Counted from the stretch's first letter, positions 47,104 through 50,030 are shown. The stretch is 64,000 bases of DNA from Gaiellaceae bacterium (GCA_035252585.1 DATFCX010000010.1:483-64482), one strand, 5' to 3'. The notes: generated by a model from the sequence alone, not told the origin. Numbers and translations are program-made.

Positions 47104-47691
47104 CTACGTGAACGGCTTCAGGACCATCGCGGCCACGACGATCAGGAGCACGCCCTCGTCTACCCGGGCAATGAGAAGGATCCGCCGGATGGCCGCCTGT
47201 GTCTCGGCCGCGTCCGCGCCCACCGTCTCGATCAGCTGTCCGATGCGCTTCGCCTGAGGGCCGAGGACGAGGAGGCCGGTCAAGAACGTGATCACGTAGC
47301 CGACCAGCCCCACCACGATCCAGGACGTTCCCCAGTCCAGGTTCAGGTTGACGACCATCGCTATGCCCATCGCGAGCACCAGCAGGCCGATGGGGGCGAA
47401 CACTCGCTCGCCGATGAATGCAGCCTGTCTCGCAATCGTCGCCATCTCAGAGGGATCGGATGAGCGCTCGGCTCGCAGCGCGAGGATCGTCAGCGTCAGG
47501 CCTCCGCCGACCCAGAGGACGGCTCCGGTCACGTGCACCCACTTGAAGAAGGCATACCAGTGCGACGGAGCGACGTTCGTCTTGAAGACGAAGACGAGCG
47601 CGAGGGCCAGGACGGCGAGCCCGACCACGGCGGTGACCGTGGTCGAGGCGCGGCGGTCTGTGGCCGTCGCGGCGGGATGTGAAGTGTCCAT
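47104..47691 (-). CDS. integral membrane protein (DUF2269-like, tentative)
   Basis: ATG 47691 within track ORF 47104-47787. Four TM spans; FFKWVHVTGAVLWVGGGLTL. Confidence 0.5.
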   Translation of the reverse strand: MDTSHPAATATDRRASTTVTAVVGLAVLALALVFVFKTNVAPSHWYAFFKWVHVTGAVLWVGGGLTLTILALRAERSSDPSEMATIARQAAFIGERVFAPIGLLVLAMGIAMVVNLNLDWGTSWIVVGLVGYVITFLTGLLVLGPQAKRIGQLIETVGADAAETQAAIRRILLIARVDEGVLLIVVAAMVLKPFT

Positions 47692-47720
47692 GGCGCGAGT
47701 AAACGCGATTGCTCGGACGG

Positions 47721-48182
47721 CTACAAGCCCCGCGCCGCGGCGATCAGCTCGTCCAGATCGGGCAGCTCGCTCGGCTCGTACGCCCACGCGCCGCGGACGA
47801 CGCCGTCGGTGTCCACCAGGAACGCGCTGCGCTGCGAGACGTCCCGCATCCCGTTGTAGTCGATCGCGACGCCGAAGCCGCGTGTCGCGTCGGCGTTCCA
47901 GTCGGACAGGAGCGGGAAGTCTAGGTCGAGCGCCTGCATCCAGGCGACGTGCGTGTACGGCGAGTCGCGCGAGATCGCGAACGGCTCGACGCCGGCGTCC
48001 TGCAGCTCCGCTCTCCTGTCACGCAGGAGCTCGAGCTCCGTCGTTCAGGTGGCGGACCAGTCGAAGAGATAGAAGAGGAGCAGCAGCGGACGCTCGTGGA
48101 TCAGGTCGCCGACGCGCGCGCGCTCGCGCGGCGTCGTCCAGATCACCGCCTCGAGCGGCGCTGTCTCCCCGGTCTCGAGCAT
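47721..48182 (-). CDS. AhpE/BCP-type 1-Cys peroxiredoxin with in-frame TGA (48045-48047) at the peroxidatic position: candidate selenocysteine protein, alternatively a nonsense pseudogene
   Basis: Track ORFs 48045-48281 and 47721-47939 share one frame. Joined, they read ...LLLLFYLFDWSAT-TGA-TTELELLRDRRAELQDAG...FPLLSDWN...QRSAFLVDTDGVVR, 153 codons in total. GC3 is high on both sides of the TGA. Confidence 0.6.
48004..48037 (-). promoter_or_regulatory. SECIS-like stem-loop downstream of the in-frame UGA
   Basis: mRNA: UGA-ACGACGG-AGCUC-GAG-CUCCUG-CGUGA-CAGGAG-AGCG-GAGCU. The lower 5-bp helix begins 8 nt after UGA. The upper helix is a perfect 6 bp. The 5-nt apical loop, containing G-U, lies 22-26 nt after UGA. 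Confidence 0.4.
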
Positions 48183-48192
48183 GCCGCCGATC

Positions 48193-49419
48193 CTATGCGG
48201 CGGCCGCGGGCTCGGGTTCGGGCGCGACCTCCGTCGCCTCCGCGATCTCGCGCACGACCTCGACGATGTCGCGATTCGCATTGAAGATGTGCAGCTGCCG
48301 GTCTGCGCCGTTGCCGCGGCGCAGGATCTCGTCGACGCCCGCGAGCTCCTCCTCCGAGCCGAGATCGCGCGCGTGCGGGCCGATCGTCTTCAGCGTCCGC
48401 CGGACGAGAGCGGCCACCGGCAGCCGGTTGCGGCGCCCCGTGTGCAGGTCCATCACGGGCGCGGAGAGCCCGTAGCGCGCGGCGAGCCACTTGTTCTCGG
48501 TGGTGAGGATGCGGTGGAAGGAAGGGATCTCCTCGCCGCGCTCCACGAGCTCCGCGTAGTGCTTCACGAGCGCCTGGCAGTAGGCGGTGATCGCGATCAC
48601 GTCGTCGAGCCGCGTCACGGCGTCGCAGATCCGGAGTTCGACTGTGCCGAGCCGCGGGTGCAGGCGGATGTCCCACCAGATGTGCGTGTAGTCCTGGATG
48701 CAGCCGGTCTTCTCGAGCTGGTTCACGACTTGCGCGTAGTCGGCGTAGTCGCGGAAGCGGGGAGGAGGCCCGGAGCGCGGGAAGGCGGCGAAGACCATGT
48801 GGCGCGAGGATCGGAGCCCCGTCGGCTCGCCGCGCCAGAACGGCGAGCTGGCCGACAGCGCGACGAGCTCCGGGAGGTGCGCGATCAGCGCGTTCACGAC
48901 CTGGATCGCCTTCTCCGCGTCGTCCACCGCGACGTGCACGTGCATCCCGAAGATGAGCTCGCGCCGCGCGATGTACTGCATCTGGTCGACGAGCGCGCGG
49001 TAGCGATCCTTGGCCGTGATCCGCTGAGTCTCGAACAGCGAGAACGGATGCGTGCCCGCCGAGCCGACACGCAGGCCTTTCTCCCGCGCGATGTCCGTGA
49101 CGTAACGCCGGATGCGGAGGAGCTGCTGCTGCACTCCCGCCGGCGTGTGGCAGACGGGTGTGGCCACCTCGAGCACCGACTGCATCAGCTCTGCGTTGAT
49201 CCGCGGCTCGAGCTCGTGCCCAGCGACCGCTGCGAGCACGGTGTCGATGTGCTGGACGAGGTCGAACGTCTCGGCGTCGAGGAGCATGTACTCCTCCTCG
49301 ACCCCGAGCGTGTACGGGTCACTCGCGCCGAAGGCGTGGTCGAGCACGCTGCCGCCCGGCGGGAACTGCGAGCCTTTGCCGGTGATCGAAACCGGAATCA
49401 GGGAGTCCGAGTCGGTCAT
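48193..49419 (-). CDS. carboxylate-amine ligase, glutamate--cysteine ligase family 2 (YbdK-like)
   Basis: ATG 49419 overlaps the YhhQ stop (ATGA). TLGVEEEYMLLD, ELMQSVLEV, GTHPF, IFGMHVHV and WWDIRLHPRLGTVELRICD are GCS2 hallmarks. Confidence 0.85.
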   Translation of the reverse strand: MTDSDSLIPVSITGKGSQFPPGGSVLDHAFGASDPYTLGVEEEYMLLDAETFDLVQHIDTVLAAVAGHELEPRINAELMQSVLEVATPVCHTPAGVQQQLLRIRRYVTDIAREKGLRVGSAGTHPFSLFETQRITAKDRYRALVDQMQYIARRELIFGMHVHVAVDDAEKAIQVVNALIAHLPELVALSASSPFWRGEPTGLRSSRHMVFAAFPRSGPPPRFRDYADYAQVVNQLEKTGCIQDYTHIWWDIRLHPRLGTVELRICDAVTRLDDVIAITAYCQALVKHYAELVERGEEIPSFHRILTTENKWLAARYGLSAPVMDLHTGRRNRLPVAALVRRTLKTIGPHARDLGSEEELAGVDEILRRGNGADRQLHIFNANRDIVEVVREIAEATEVAPEPEPAAAA

Positions 49420-50030
49420 GCCGGGACGATATCCCCCGTGTTTGCAGGAAGAAAGCGTCGGCCGAGCACGACGAGCGGGATTCCGATCACGACCGACGAG
49501 GCGATCTTCCCCACGAGCTGGCCGTCGAAGAAGTGGAGGCCTGCGGTCCCGAACGCGAGCACGAGGAAGACCGCGCTGTCGATCGGGGCGCTGGCCCCCG
49601 CCGAGACAGCGACGCGCACGCCGTCGTGCACGCGCCCGCGGAGCGGAGCGCCCACGAGGTTGTCGACGGTCTCCGACGCGAGGAAGGCGGCGAGGCTGGC
49701 GGCCACGATGCGCCACGTCGAGCCCACAGCGCTGTCGAACTCCTGGCCCGGAAAGGCCGGGTGGGAGTGGACGAGGAGCGCGATGTAGCCGGCGAAGAAC
49801 GCCGAGCCGACGAAGCCGAGACCGATCAGGAGCTGGGCGTTGACCGCGCCGTCGCGGCGGGTCGCGCCGGTGTGGTGCGCGAGCTGCACGAGCGCGAGCG
49901 CGACGCCGATCGAGTAGACGCCGCCGGGAGCCTGCAGGTGCGTGAACGGGAGGCGGATGAACTTCTGCGCGCCGATCTGCGCCGAGAGCACGACGGCGAC
50001 ATAGAGCCCGGCGAGGGTGGCGAGCCTCAT
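49416..50030 (-). CDS. VUT-family queuosine-precursor transporter (YhhQ/DUF165-like)
   Basis: 204 aa with 6 TM. LAAFLASETVDNLV and SAPIDSAVFLVLAFG motifs. The ATG overlaps the RidA stop (ATGA). Confidence 0.75.
   Translation of the reverse strand: MRLATLAGLYVAVVLSAQIGAQKFIRLPFTHLQAPGGVYSIGVALALVQLAHHTGATRRDGAVNAQLLIGLGFVGSAFFAGYIALLVHSHPAFPGQEFDSAVGSTWRIVAASLAAFLASETVDNLVGAPLRGRVHDGVRVAVSAGASAPIDSAVFLVLAFGTAGLHFFDGQLVGKIASSVVIGIPLVVLGRRFLPANTGDIVPA

What the first reader, a model, noticed from the sequence alone, without database searches (positions are those of the whole stretch)
48004..48037. SECIS-like two-helix hairpin placed 8 nt downstream of the UGA
Reading the mRNA (minus strand) after the UGA gives ACGACGG AGCUC GAG CUCCUG CGUGA CAGGAG AGCG GAGCU GCAG.
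- CUCCUG and CAGGAG form a perfect 6-bp upper helix capped by the 5-nt loop CGUGA.
- AGCUC and GAGCU form a 5-bp lower helix across a small internal loop.
- The apical loop lies 22-26 nt from the UGA and contains G and U.

As I recall, bacterial SECIS elements (the E. coli fdhF paradigm) are hairpins starting about 11 nt after UGA with a G/U-containing apical loop roughly 16-37 nt from the codon. The geometry therefore fits, but hairpins are easy to find in GC-rich DNA. GGAGCUCGAGCUCC is also self-complementary, so alternative folds exist.
Basis: partly seen in the sequence, partly recalled or inferred. Interest (0 to 1): 0.6.

Follow-up and report, generated by a model that had tools for sequence, protein, structure and literature searches.

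The report
Selenocysteine insertion hairpin in peroxiredoxin gene
The hairpin after the in-frame UGA is very probably a genuine bacterial selenocysteine-insertion signal in a peroxiredoxin gene of a soil actinobacterium (Gaiellaceae), but only its upper 17 nucleotides are conserved; the kind of element is already known.

Summary
On the minus strand, UGA (48047-48045) is followed by AGCUC / CUCCUG-CGUGA-CAGGAG / GAGCU at 48037-48004.

Folding energy alone does not distinguish the hairpin (z = -0.8). A crude UGA-plus-hairpin scan of this 1.9 Mb GC-rich genome gave 105 hits. The comparative evidence is strong:
- **Gene.** It is a BCP/PrxQ-like peroxiredoxin, with UGA at the peroxidatic Cys position.
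- **Spread.** Orthologues were found in 250 of 301 Gaiellaceae genomes and in a sister family. Nearly all of those examined carry one in-frame TGA.
- **Conservation.** In 116 distinct TGA orthologues (45-99% protein identity), the 17-nt core CUCCUG-CGUGA-CAGGAG has 0-2 changes. These are mostly wobble-compatible or in the loop. The core is held by rare Arg codons (CGT, AGG).
- **Natural experiment.** Six orthologues with TGC/TGT form four independent lineages. All encode similar residues here (four keep LLRDR) but carry 3-5 changes that destroy the hairpin.
- **Consensus.** The geometry fits the published bacterial SECIS model (6-bp stem, 5-nt loop, G then U, 21 nt from UGA to loop).

In this 58.6%-complete MAG, selA and selD are present but selB and tRNA-Sec were not found. 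Both are common in the genus.

Verdict: a real SECIS, a new member of a known kind, of modest interest.

The parts
47721..48182 (-). Coding sequence of a 153-residue BCP/PrxQ-like peroxiredoxin. Selenocysteine (U46) sits at the peroxidatic-Cys position (motif FDWSAT-U-TTE). The protein has no Cys.
   Evidence: Translation with TGA=U is open from ATG 48182 to the stop at 47721. Pfam AhpC-TSA, E = 2.5e-22. The best PDB match is Aeropyrum pernix BCP 2cx3, with U aligned to its peroxidatic Cys. Orthologues with exactly one in-frame TGA occur across Gaiellaceae.
48045..48047 (-). In-frame UGA read as selenocysteine.
   Evidence: TGA is present in 116 of 122 distinct orthologous sequences; the other six have TGC/TGT. 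More distant homologues have Cys at this column.
48048..48050 (-). Invariant ACC (Thr) codon immediately 5' of the UGA; possible recoding context.
   Evidence: ACC in 41 of 41 species. It is the only codon outside the hairpin among the five least synonymously variable of 33 conserved codons with at least fourfold degeneracy. Two of the six Cys variants have ACG instead. Any role is inferred only.
48030..48044 (-). 15-nt spacer between the UGA and the conserved stem.
   Evidence: The length is constant in all orthologues, but the sequence varies at synonymous and non-synonymous sites.
48013..48029 (-). SECIS core: stem CUCCUG (48029-48024) / CAGGAG (48018-48013) capped by the loop CGUGA (48023-48019).
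   Evidence: Identical in 99 of 116 TGA orthologues, with 1-2 changes in the rest. RNAalifold predicts exactly these 6 pairs. The four degenerate codons inside it are among the five least variable (hypergeometric p = 1.2e-4), and it uses the rare Arg codons CGT and AGG. It is single-copy in each of the 37 genomes that carry it; wherever one search lists the orthologue's coordinates, it lies inside that gene. It is lost in all six Cys variants.
48004..48008 (-). It pairs with 48033-48037 in this genome, but the pairing is not conserved.
   Evidence: 79% of cells paired; pairs 28:57 and 30:55 are broken in 29 and 34 of 101 sequences; covariation is no better than shuffles. It is not in the RNAalifold consensus.

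Best explanation
The 17-nt stem-loop CUCCUG-CGUGA-CAGGAG (48029-48013, minus strand) lies 15 nt after the in-frame UGA at 48047-48045. It is the bacterial SECIS element of a selenocysteine-containing BCP/PrxQ-type peroxiredoxin of a Gaiellaceae bacterium.

Proposed mechanism, inferred from the E. coli and Moorella paradigm:
- As the ribosome approaches the UGA, the upstream mRNA and the weak lower helix are unwound.
- The upper hairpin forms just outside the mRNA entry channel.
- Its loop (G at loop position 2, followed by U) is bound by the C-terminal winged-helix domain of SelB carrying GTP and Sec-tRNA(Sec).
- That tethers the complex to the A site, so UGA is decoded as Sec at the peroxidatic position.

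Shown here: the element is under nucleotide-level purifying selection, and that selection exists only when the codon is UGA.

Inferred, not shown: SelB binding and actual Sec insertion.

The near-total invariance, and therefore the lack of covariation, is best explained by double constraint. The stem bases also encode the conserved peptide LLRDR. Almost any single change breaks either a base pair or a residue.
For: 1. The gene is a peroxiredoxin with UGA at the catalytic Cys column.

2. Orthologues with exactly one in-frame TGA were found in 34 of 36 genomes of the genus and 6 of 6 of a sister family. Orthologues were found in 250 of 301 Gaiellaceae genomes.

3. The 17-mer has 0 changes in 99, 1 in 15 and 2 in 2 of 116 distinct TGA orthologues, at 45-99% protein identity. 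The stem changes are U-A to U-G (7), C-G to U-G (1) or loss of the terminal pair (4). The loop changes are mainly U to G, which the published G[G|U] loop pattern allows.

4. Synonymous sites: the hairpin codons CTC, CTG, CGT and AGG are four of the five least variable among 33 conserved degenerate codons (p = 1.2e-4). CGT and AGG make up only 6% and 3% of Arg codons elsewhere in these genes.

5. Natural experiment: six orthologues with TGC/TGT need four independent switches on the tree, forced by well-supported branches. All have 3-5 substitutions in the 17-mer. Four still encode LLRDR through the common codons CGC/CGG/CTG, and the others differ at only one of these residues (HLRDR, LLRDK). 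Hairpin energy falls from -7.4 to between -1.2 and -3.7 kcal/mol. Four of these genomes keep tRNA-Sec and three keep selA. So the link is to the codon in cis, not just to the genome's Sec trait.

6. RNAalifold predicts only this helix.

7. It meets the published bSECIS consensus (PMC13188914, Fig. 2A): loop 5 nt, stem 6 bp, G at loop position 2 followed by U, 21 nt from UGA to loop.

8. Sec machinery: selA and selD are over their cut-offs in the own genome. Among the 61 relatives searched, 43 have SelB over its cut-off and 28 of 36 genus genomes have tRNA-Sec. A genus SelB carries the SelB-wing_3 domain.

9. Three other selenoprotein genes in the same genome (FdhA-like, thioredoxin-like U-PHC, deiodinase-like/AhpC-TSA U-PYC) have GC-rich 6-bp hairpins with GU in the loop, 11-12 nt after their UGA.

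10. More distant Sec-containing homologues have different hairpins at a similar position. They fold more stably there than Cys homologues: mean -18.3 against -12.7 kcal/mol, one-sided Mann-Whitney p = 0.012, small and non-independent sample.
Against: - No experiment shows Sec insertion or SelB binding.
- There is no compensatory (both-sides) covariation in the stem, so the helix itself is supported only by invariance and wobble-compatible changes.
- The folding energy is unremarkable (z = -0.8). The bare 17-mer is -7.4 kcal/mol, marginally short of the -7.5 consensus threshold; it is -8.7 with flanking bases.
- With upstream mRNA included, the predicted probability of the helix falls to 0-0.04.
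- selB and tRNA-Sec were not found in this 58.6%-complete MAG.
- The loop does not fit the preferred N1...N2 closing-pair detail of the consensus (C and A do not pair).
Confidence: 0.9

Rival explanations
1. The functional SECIS is the full two-helix structure. On this view the lower helix AGCUC/GAGCU is required for SelB recruitment or for the correct presentation of the upper helix.
For: In this sequence the two-helix fold is the MFE of the downstream 63 nt. The lower pairs have probability 0.49-0.96, and the helix adds about 10 kcal/mol. The nearest roughly 60 relatives keep the five pairs.
Against: Across 101 TGA orthologues only 79% of lower-helix cells pair. Two of the six pairs are broken in about 30%, and covariation equals the shuffled expectation. 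RNAalifold drops the helix. It starts 8 nt after UGA. From general knowledge of the ribosomal mRNA channel, not tested here, that segment should be inside or at the channel when UGA is in the A site. In E. coli fdhF the lower helix is dispensable (my knowledge, not checked here).
Confidence: 0.12
2. The hairpin is a chance by-product of a conserved peptide (LLRDR) in GC-rich coding DNA and has no role in recoding. The UGA would then be suppressed or read by some other means, or the gene is broken.
For: The energy z-score is only -0.8. There are 105 comparable UGA+hairpin hits in the genome. No stem covariation is seen.
Against: The same peptide is encoded without the hairpin in four of the six Cys variants, and a near-identical one in the other two. 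Synonymous sites are frozen only when the codon is TGA, and they are held by rare codons. The ORF is intact past the TGA in more than 100 species. No reassignment of UGA was seen (no tRNA with a UCA anticodon), and selenoprotein machinery is present in the lineage.
Confidence: 0.02
3. The conserved 17-mer serves another nucleotide-level function unrelated to SelB. Examples are a translational pause site, a regulatory protein or sRNA target, or a DNA-level site that merely coincides with the UGA.
For: Invariance of sequence, rather than covariation of structure, is what a sequence-specific binding site would also produce. Full-length mRNA folding suggests alternative pairings with upstream sequence.
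Against: Conservation is conditional on the UGA in four independent lineages. That pattern is expected for a SECIS, not for an independent site. Position, loop composition and allowed variation match the bSECIS model (PMC13188914). The 17-mer occurs nowhere else in these genomes.
Confidence: 0.04

Closest known systems
Bacterial SECIS consensus model (bSECISearch model of Zhang and Gladyshev, as summarised in PMC13188914, Fig. 2A); paradigm E. coli fdhF SECIS
   Same: A stem-loop inside the ORF directly after the Sec UGA. It has a small apical loop (5 nt), a 6-bp upper stem, G in the first two loop positions followed by U (or G in variants), and 21 nt from UGA to loop (allowed range 16-37). 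The conserved and presumably sufficient part is a 17-nt upper stem-loop, as in the fdhF minimal element (my knowledge).
   Different: The spacer to the conserved stem is 15 nt, against 11 nt in fdhF (my knowledge) and 11-12 nt in the three other selenoprotein genes of this genome. There is no bulged U. The loop ends C...A cannot pair. The element is almost invariant across a whole bacterial family, whereas bSECIS elements are usually described as poorly conserved in sequence.
Peroxiredoxin (Prx) selenoprotein family, T/SxxU in PF00578 (PMC13188914 table; PMC1794560); founding member PrxU of Eubacterium acidaminophilum, NCBIfam NF040737
   Same: AhpC/TSA fold. Sec replaces the peroxidatic Cys in an S-x-x-U motif, and the conserved Arg is present.
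   Different: It is not a PrxU orthologue: 47.7 bits against a cut-off of 270. It is a short, 153-residue, BCP/PrxQ- or AhpE-like protein with no Cys at all, so it is a '1-Sec' enzyme. Leu replaces the usual Pro of PxxxT/SxxC. The lineage is Gaiellaceae (Thermoleophilia).
Cys-containing BCP/PrxQ peroxiredoxins (e.g. Aeropyrum pernix BCP, PDB 2cx3; M. tuberculosis AhpE, Rv2238c)
   Same: These are the best solved-structure matches over nearly the full length. The active-site motif is colinear.
   Different: They use Cys and have no recoding signal. The six Cys orthologues in Gaiellaceae show what the region looks like without a SECIS.
Sec-to-Cys conversions with residual or decayed SECIS-like structures (FdhA, HesB-like; PMC1794560, Fig. 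4)
   Same: Cys forms are nested among Sec forms of the same orthologous group, and the downstream hairpin is no longer maintained.
   Different: Here there are four independent conversions within one family. The decay is complete, to -1.2 to -3.7 kcal/mol, rather than leaving a retained fossil hairpin.

Membership tests
Bacterial SECIS element (bSECIS consensus model, PMC13188914 Fig. 2A) | Stem-loop located in the mRNA immediately downstream of an in-frame Sec-UGA | tested here: met
   UGA is at 48047-48045 and the conserved stem starts 15 nt later, inside the ORF.
Bacterial SECIS element (bSECIS consensus model, PMC13188914 Fig. 2A) | Apical loop of 3-9 nt on an upper stem of 4-16 bp | tested here: met
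   A 5-nt loop (CGUGA) on a 6-bp stem, found both by RNAfold on the single sequence and by RNAalifold on 101 orthologues.
Bacterial SECIS element (bSECIS consensus model, PMC13188914 Fig. 2A) | At least one G in the first two loop positions, usually followed by G or U | tested here: met
   The loop is C-G-U-G-A. In all 116 TGA orthologues loop position 2 is G, and position 3 is U or, in five, G. The optional N1-N2 closing pair is not formed.
Bacterial SECIS element (bSECIS consensus model, PMC13188914 Fig. 2A) | 16-37 nt between the UGA and the apical loop | tested here: met
   21 nt (15-nt spacer plus 6-nt stem arm), constant in all orthologues.
Bacterial SECIS element (bSECIS consensus model, PMC13188914 Fig. 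2A) | Minimum free energy of -7.5 kcal/mol or lower | tested here: met
   -7.4 for the bare 17-mer (marginal), -8.7 with one flanking base on each side, -18.0 with the lower helix. The RNAalifold consensus is -8.6.
Bacterial SECIS element (bSECIS consensus model, PMC13188914 Fig. 2A) | Conservation tied to the Sec codon: present in UGA homologues, not needed in Cys homologues | tested here: met
   116 TGA orthologues have 0-2 changes. Six TGC/TGT orthologues, from four independent switches, have 3-5 changes and have lost the hairpin.
Bacterial SECIS element (bSECIS consensus model, PMC13188914 Fig. 2A) | Genome encodes SelA, SelB, SelD and tRNA-Sec | tested here: inconclusive
   In the own MAG (58.6% complete), selA (cut by a contig end) and selD are over their cut-offs. 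selB was not found; the best hit is IF-2. tRNA-Sec was not found. Among the 61 relatives searched, SelB is over its cut-off in 43 genomes and tRNA-Sec in 28 of 36 genus genomes.
Bacterial SECIS element (bSECIS consensus model, PMC13188914 Fig. 2A) | Binds SelB and directs Sec insertion at the UGA | not testable with these tools
   This needs reporter, binding or mass-spectrometry experiments. The only related result is that a genus SelB has the SECIS-binding SelB-wing_3 domain.
Peroxiredoxin selenoprotein family (T/SxxU, PF00578) | AhpC/TSA domain | tested here: met
   PF00578, E = 2.5e-22, 79.5 bits against a cut-off of 26.
Peroxiredoxin selenoprotein family (T/SxxU, PF00578) | Sec at the peroxidatic Cys position in a T/S-x-x-U motif, with the conserved active-site Arg | tested here: met
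   S-A-T-U aligns with S-P-V-C of 2cx3. The Arg of QRSAFLV aligns with the Arg of KRAVFIV. The usual Pro at position -7 is Leu here.
PrxU equivalog (NCBIfam NF040737) | Score over the curated equivalog cut-off | tested here: not met
   47.7 bits against 270. It is a different Prx subfamily; no NCBIfam model reaches its cut-off.

The most novel reading that the evidence does not exclude
The extreme sequence invariance of the 17-mer across a whole family and a sister family, and its 15-nt spacing (against 11-12 nt in the genome's other selenoprotein genes), might reflect more than dual coding and pairing constraint. One possibility is a lineage-specific SelB identity element read by sequence. 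Another is a selenium-responsive switch in which the CAGGAG arm alternates between the SECIS stem and pairing with the pyrimidine-rich upstream segment seen in full-length folds. That would tune Sec-peroxiredoxin output in an abundant aerobic soil lineage.
Probability: 0.07. Interest if true: 0.5.

Novelty: new member of a known kind. Interest (0 to 1): 0.3.

Why it matters
- **Annotation.** No curated NCBIfam model reaches its cut-off for this protein, so default gene callers are likely to split or truncate the gene at the UGA. Recognising the SECIS gives the correct 153-residue selenoprotein. It also provides a simple 17-nt marker for it across Gaiellaceae, a widespread soil actinobacterial family. 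No paper on selenocysteine use in this family was found in the held library.
- **Biology.** The gene is close to a core gene of the family (250 of 301 genomes). That implies these bacteria depend on selenium for a peroxide-detoxifying enzyme.
- **Method.** The locus shows how to validate a bacterial SECIS when covariation is absent: by frozen synonymous sites, plus repeated loss of the hairpin wherever UGA became a Cys codon.
- **Limit.** It does not change what is known about how SECIS elements work.

Tried and rejected
- **Rfam.** There were no matches in the window at gathering thresholds, and only sub-threshold microRNA and sRNA noise at E <= 10 around the site. None of the hits was a SECIS family, so this says nothing either way.
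- **Thermodynamic significance.** The downstream 63 nt give z = -0.8. A 141-nt context gives z = +0.86 with a different fold. Rejected as a criterion.
- **Covariation.** The count of structure pairs on the two-helix model shows no excess over shuffles. The stem is invariant, so this test cannot support or refute it.
- **Regex scan for UGA+hairpin in the own genome.** It gave 105 hits, mostly in non-coding frames. It is useless as a detector, but it exposed three further real selenoprotein genes.
- **selB in the own genome.** The best hit proved to be IF-2. ARAGORN and the Rfam tRNA-Sec model found no tRNA-Sec. This is attributed to the 58.6% completeness; selA sits at a contig end.
- **Loss of the Sec trait as the cause of Cys variants.** This fits G461, which lacks selA, selB, selD and tRNA-Sec over their cut-offs. 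G582 likewise lacks selA and tRNA-Sec (selB and selD were not searched there). It does not fit the other four, which keep tRNA-Sec. Rejected as a general explanation.
- **FdhA hairpin as a yardstick.** Its exact 17-mer occurs in only 9 of the 61 genomes searched, G000 included, so it was not pursued further.
- **Homology with distant Sec-peroxiredoxins.** Those in other families of the phylum (L061, L065, L070, L073) have hairpins 7-9 nt after the UGA with AGUU-type loops. They are not positionally homologous, so they could not be used for covariation.

Full report
**What is in the sequence**

On the minus strand the mRNA reads ...GAC UGG UCC GCC ACC UGA, with the UGA at 48047-48045. Next come ACGACGG, AGCUC (48037-48033), GAG, CUCCUG (48029-48024), CGUGA (48023-48019), CAGGAG (48018-48013), AGCG, GAGCU (48008-48004) and GCAG.

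Reading TGA as U gives one open frame from ATG 48182 to the stop at 47721. It encodes 153 residues with the motif FDWSAT-U-TTE and no cysteine.

**What the gene is**

- Pfam assigns AhpC-TSA (E = 2.5e-22) and Redoxin.
- No NCBIfam model reaches its cut-off. The selenoprotein PrxU equivalog scores 47.7 bits against 270.
- The best solved structures are BCP/PrxQ-type and AhpE-type peroxiredoxins. U aligns with the peroxidatic Cys of Aeropyrum pernix BCP, and the active-site Arg is conserved.
- The neighbours on the same strand are a GCS2-family glutamate-cysteine ligase upstream and a DUF2269 membrane protein downstream.
- Relatives in public genomes are MAGs labelled Gaiellaceae, Gaiellales or Thermoleophilia.

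**Is the hairpin more than chance by folding?**

No.
- In a 141-nt context the MFE is a different structure, with z = +0.86.
- With upstream sequence included, the pair probability of the upper helix is 0-0.04. With downstream sequence only, which is the situation behind a translating ribosome, it is 0.83-0.99.
- A crude scan of the 1.9 Mb genome for UGA followed by a GC-rich 6-bp hairpin with GU in the loop returns 105 hits, mostly in meaningless frames.

**Comparative evidence**

*Spread of the gene.* The protein has orthologues with exactly one in-frame TGA in 34 of 36 genomes of the same genus. The same holds for 6 of 6 genomes of a sister family in the order. Orthologues were found in 250 of 301 genomes of the family, spanning 82 of 89 genera. 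Among the roughly 150 matches listed, all but five have one TGA.

*Conservation of the core.* I collected 122 distinct sequences of the region from 15 nt before to 72 nt after the codon. Of these, 116 carry TGA. In them the 17-nt core CUCCUG-CGUGA-CAGGAG is identical in 99, differs at one position in 15 and at two positions in 2, at protein identities from 99% down to 45%. The changes are:
- U-A to U-G in the stem (7 sequences);
- C-G to U-G (1);
- loss of the outermost pair (4);
- loop U to G (5), once together with loop A to C.

The inner five pairs are kept in all 116.

*Structure prediction.* RNAalifold on 101 of these sequences predicts exactly the six upper pairs and nothing else.

*Copy number.* The exact 17-mer occurs once in each of the 37 genomes (of 61 searched) that carry it. 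Wherever one search lists the orthologue's coordinates, it lies inside that gene. It is therefore not a repeat.

*Synonymous sites.* In a codon alignment of 41 species, 33 columns hold a conserved amino acid with at least fourfold degeneracy. Conserved Leu codons elsewhere have codon entropies of 0.87-1.6 bits and conserved Arg codons 0.5-1.6 bits. The hairpin codons CTC, CTG and AGG have 0 bits and CGT has 0.28. They are four of the five least variable columns (hypergeometric p = 1.2e-4). The fifth is the invariant ACC just before the UGA. CGT and AGG make up only 6% and 3% of Arg codons in the rest of these genes. So selection acts on the RNA, not only on the peptide LLRDR.

**The natural experiment**

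Six orthologues have TGC or TGT instead of TGA: L144 and L178-L182.
- Every one has 3-5 substitutions in the 17-mer.
- Four still encode LLRDR, now with the common codons CTG, CGC and CGG. The others differ at only one of these residues (HLRDR, LLRDK).
- The hairpin energy drops from -7.4 to between -1.2 and -3.7 kcal/mol.
- On a maximum-likelihood tree of 121 proteins, with the Sec/Cys column masked, the six Cys rows fall in four separate places. Each is nested among Sec rows. Four changes are forced by well-supported branches and are found in all bootstrap trees.
- With the sister family all Sec, the parsimonious reading is four Sec-to-Cys conversions. The root is only a midpoint, so direction is inferred.
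- One Cys genome (G461) has none of selA, selB, selD or tRNA-Sec over their cut-offs. Another (G582) has neither selA nor tRNA-Sec.
- The other four keep tRNA-Sec, and three of them keep selA.

So maintenance of the hairpin depends on the UGA in cis. That is the expected behaviour of a SECIS.

**The lower helix**

Two pairs are broken in about 30% of sequences. Covariation is no higher than in shuffles. It is conserved only among the closest relatives, where little has changed anyway.

It begins 8 nt after the UGA. From general knowledge of the ribosomal mRNA channel, that region should be unwound when the UGA is in the A site. I regard the lower helix as incidental, or at most an auxiliary stabiliser in this sub-clade.

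**Why there is no covariation**

The stem pairs link Leu codon positions with positions in AGG and the following AGN codon. Only two pairs (columns 36:48 and 39:45) join two wobble positions. Their synonymous compensatory alternatives (CTT with AGA; CTA with GAT) would replace G-C pairs by A-U pairs. Almost any other change alters a conserved residue or breaks a pair. This dual constraint is my inference. It explains the frozen sequence without invoking sequence-specific reading of the stem. The genome's other selenoprotein genes have quite different stems, which agrees with this.

**Sec competence**

- The window's genome is a 58.6%-complete MAG of 84 contigs.
- selA is over its cut-off but cut by a contig end. 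selD is also over its cut-off.
- selB was not found; the best hit is IF-2. No tRNA-Sec was found.
- Among 61 relatives, SelB is over its cut-off in 43 genomes. tRNA-Sec is over its cut-off in 28 of 36 genus genomes, and in 18 of 19 high-quality genomes.
- A genus SelB has the C-terminal SelB-wing_3 domain.
- One family of the order lacks tRNA-Sec in the six genomes searched and also lacks this gene.
- The own genome carries at least three more selenoprotein genes. They are a molybdopterin formate-dehydrogenase-type subunit (...ARI-U-HSSTV...), a Thioredoxin_3 protein (T-U-PHC) and a deiodinase-like/AhpC-TSA protein (FGSFT-U-PYC). Each has a 6-bp GC-rich hairpin with GU in the loop, 11-12 nt after its UGA.

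**Comparison with what is known**

The published bacterial SECIS consensus (PMC13188914, Fig. 2A; also quoted in PMC10778597) requires:
- a 3-9 nt apical loop on a 4-16 bp stem;
- a G in the first two loop positions, usually followed by G or U;
- 16-37 nt between UGA and loop;
- MFE of -7.5 kcal/mol or lower.

The element has a 5-nt loop, a 6-bp stem, the loop CGUGA (CGGGA in some) and 21 nt of spacing. Its energy is -7.4 bare, -8.7 with flanking bases and -8.6 as the alignment consensus.

Peroxiredoxin with T/SxxU is a recognised bacterial selenoprotein family (PMC13188914; PMC1794560). This protein is a distinct BCP-like, Cys-free member and is not PrxU.

No paper in the held library deals with selenocysteine use in Gaiella or its relatives. 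Two papers merely mention both words.

Earlier scan notes on the same window had flagged the TGA at the peroxidatic position and the operon context. My results agree with both.

**Verdict**

The hairpin is real. Its upper 17 nt are very probably (about 0.9) the SECIS of a Sec-peroxiredoxin, working as in the SelB paradigm. The lower helix is not supported.

This is a new member of a known kind. It is ordinary in mechanism. It is neat as a comparative demonstration, and useful for annotating an abundant soil lineage. SelB binding and Sec insertion remain untested.

Noticed in passing
L175:1001-1003 (= G000 contig C31:11732-11734, + strand; outside the window): There is an in-frame TGA in a molybdopterin oxidoreductase (FdhA/FdnG-like, context ...VENQARI-U-HSSTVPSLG...). 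The hairpin GUGCCC-AGUCU-GGGCAC starts 12 nt after it. The exact hairpin 17-mer after a TGA is found in only 9 of the 61 genomes searched, G000 included.
   Followed up: partly
L176:601-603 (= G000 C13:26820-26822, +): There is an in-frame TGA in a Thioredoxin_3-domain protein (VFVTPT-U-PHCP redox motif). The hairpin GCCGGC-CGUGCU-GCUGGC starts 11 nt downstream. This is a likely thioredoxin-like selenoprotein.
   Followed up: partly
L177:1549-1551 (= G000 C61:1549-1551, +): There is an in-frame TGA in a deiodinase-like/AhpC-TSA protein (FGSFT-U-PYC). The hairpin GCGGAG-GGUC-CUCUGC starts 12 nt downstream. This is a likely second redoxin-type selenoprotein of the genome.
   Followed up: partly
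window 48048-48050 (-): The Thr codon ACC directly before the UGA is invariant in all 41 species of the codon alignment, although Thr is fourfold degenerate. Two of the six Cys variants have ACG. This may be a codon-context effect on UGA recoding.
   Followed up: partly
window 47104-49716 (-): The Sec-peroxiredoxin sits between a GCS2-family glutamate-cysteine ligase (48193-49716) and a DUF2269 integral membrane protein (47104-47787) on the same strand. This suggests a thiol/peroxide-defence operon. Conservation of this synteny was not checked.
   Followed up: no
L061, L065, L070, L073 (other families of the phylum): More distant Sec-containing peroxiredoxin homologues (31-36% identity; motifs such as F-x-x-V-U) carry a different hairpin. 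It has a 7-9 bp stem with an AGUU or AGUUC loop, starts 7-9 nt after the UGA, and shows stem differences among the four sequences. It is probably a separate SECIS class for a separate Prx subfamily.
   Followed up: partly
G000 C41:20-1054 (-), locus L013: selA is cut off by the start of its contig. selB often follows selA in bacteria, so its absence from the assembly may be a fragmentation artefact.
   Followed up: no
window 47950-48090 (-): In folds that include upstream mRNA, the pyrimidine-rich segment GCUCCUCUUC (about 48081-48072) pairs with the GGAGAGCGGAGC region and competes with the SECIS stem. Whether this alternative pairing is conserved or has any role was not examined.
   Followed up: no
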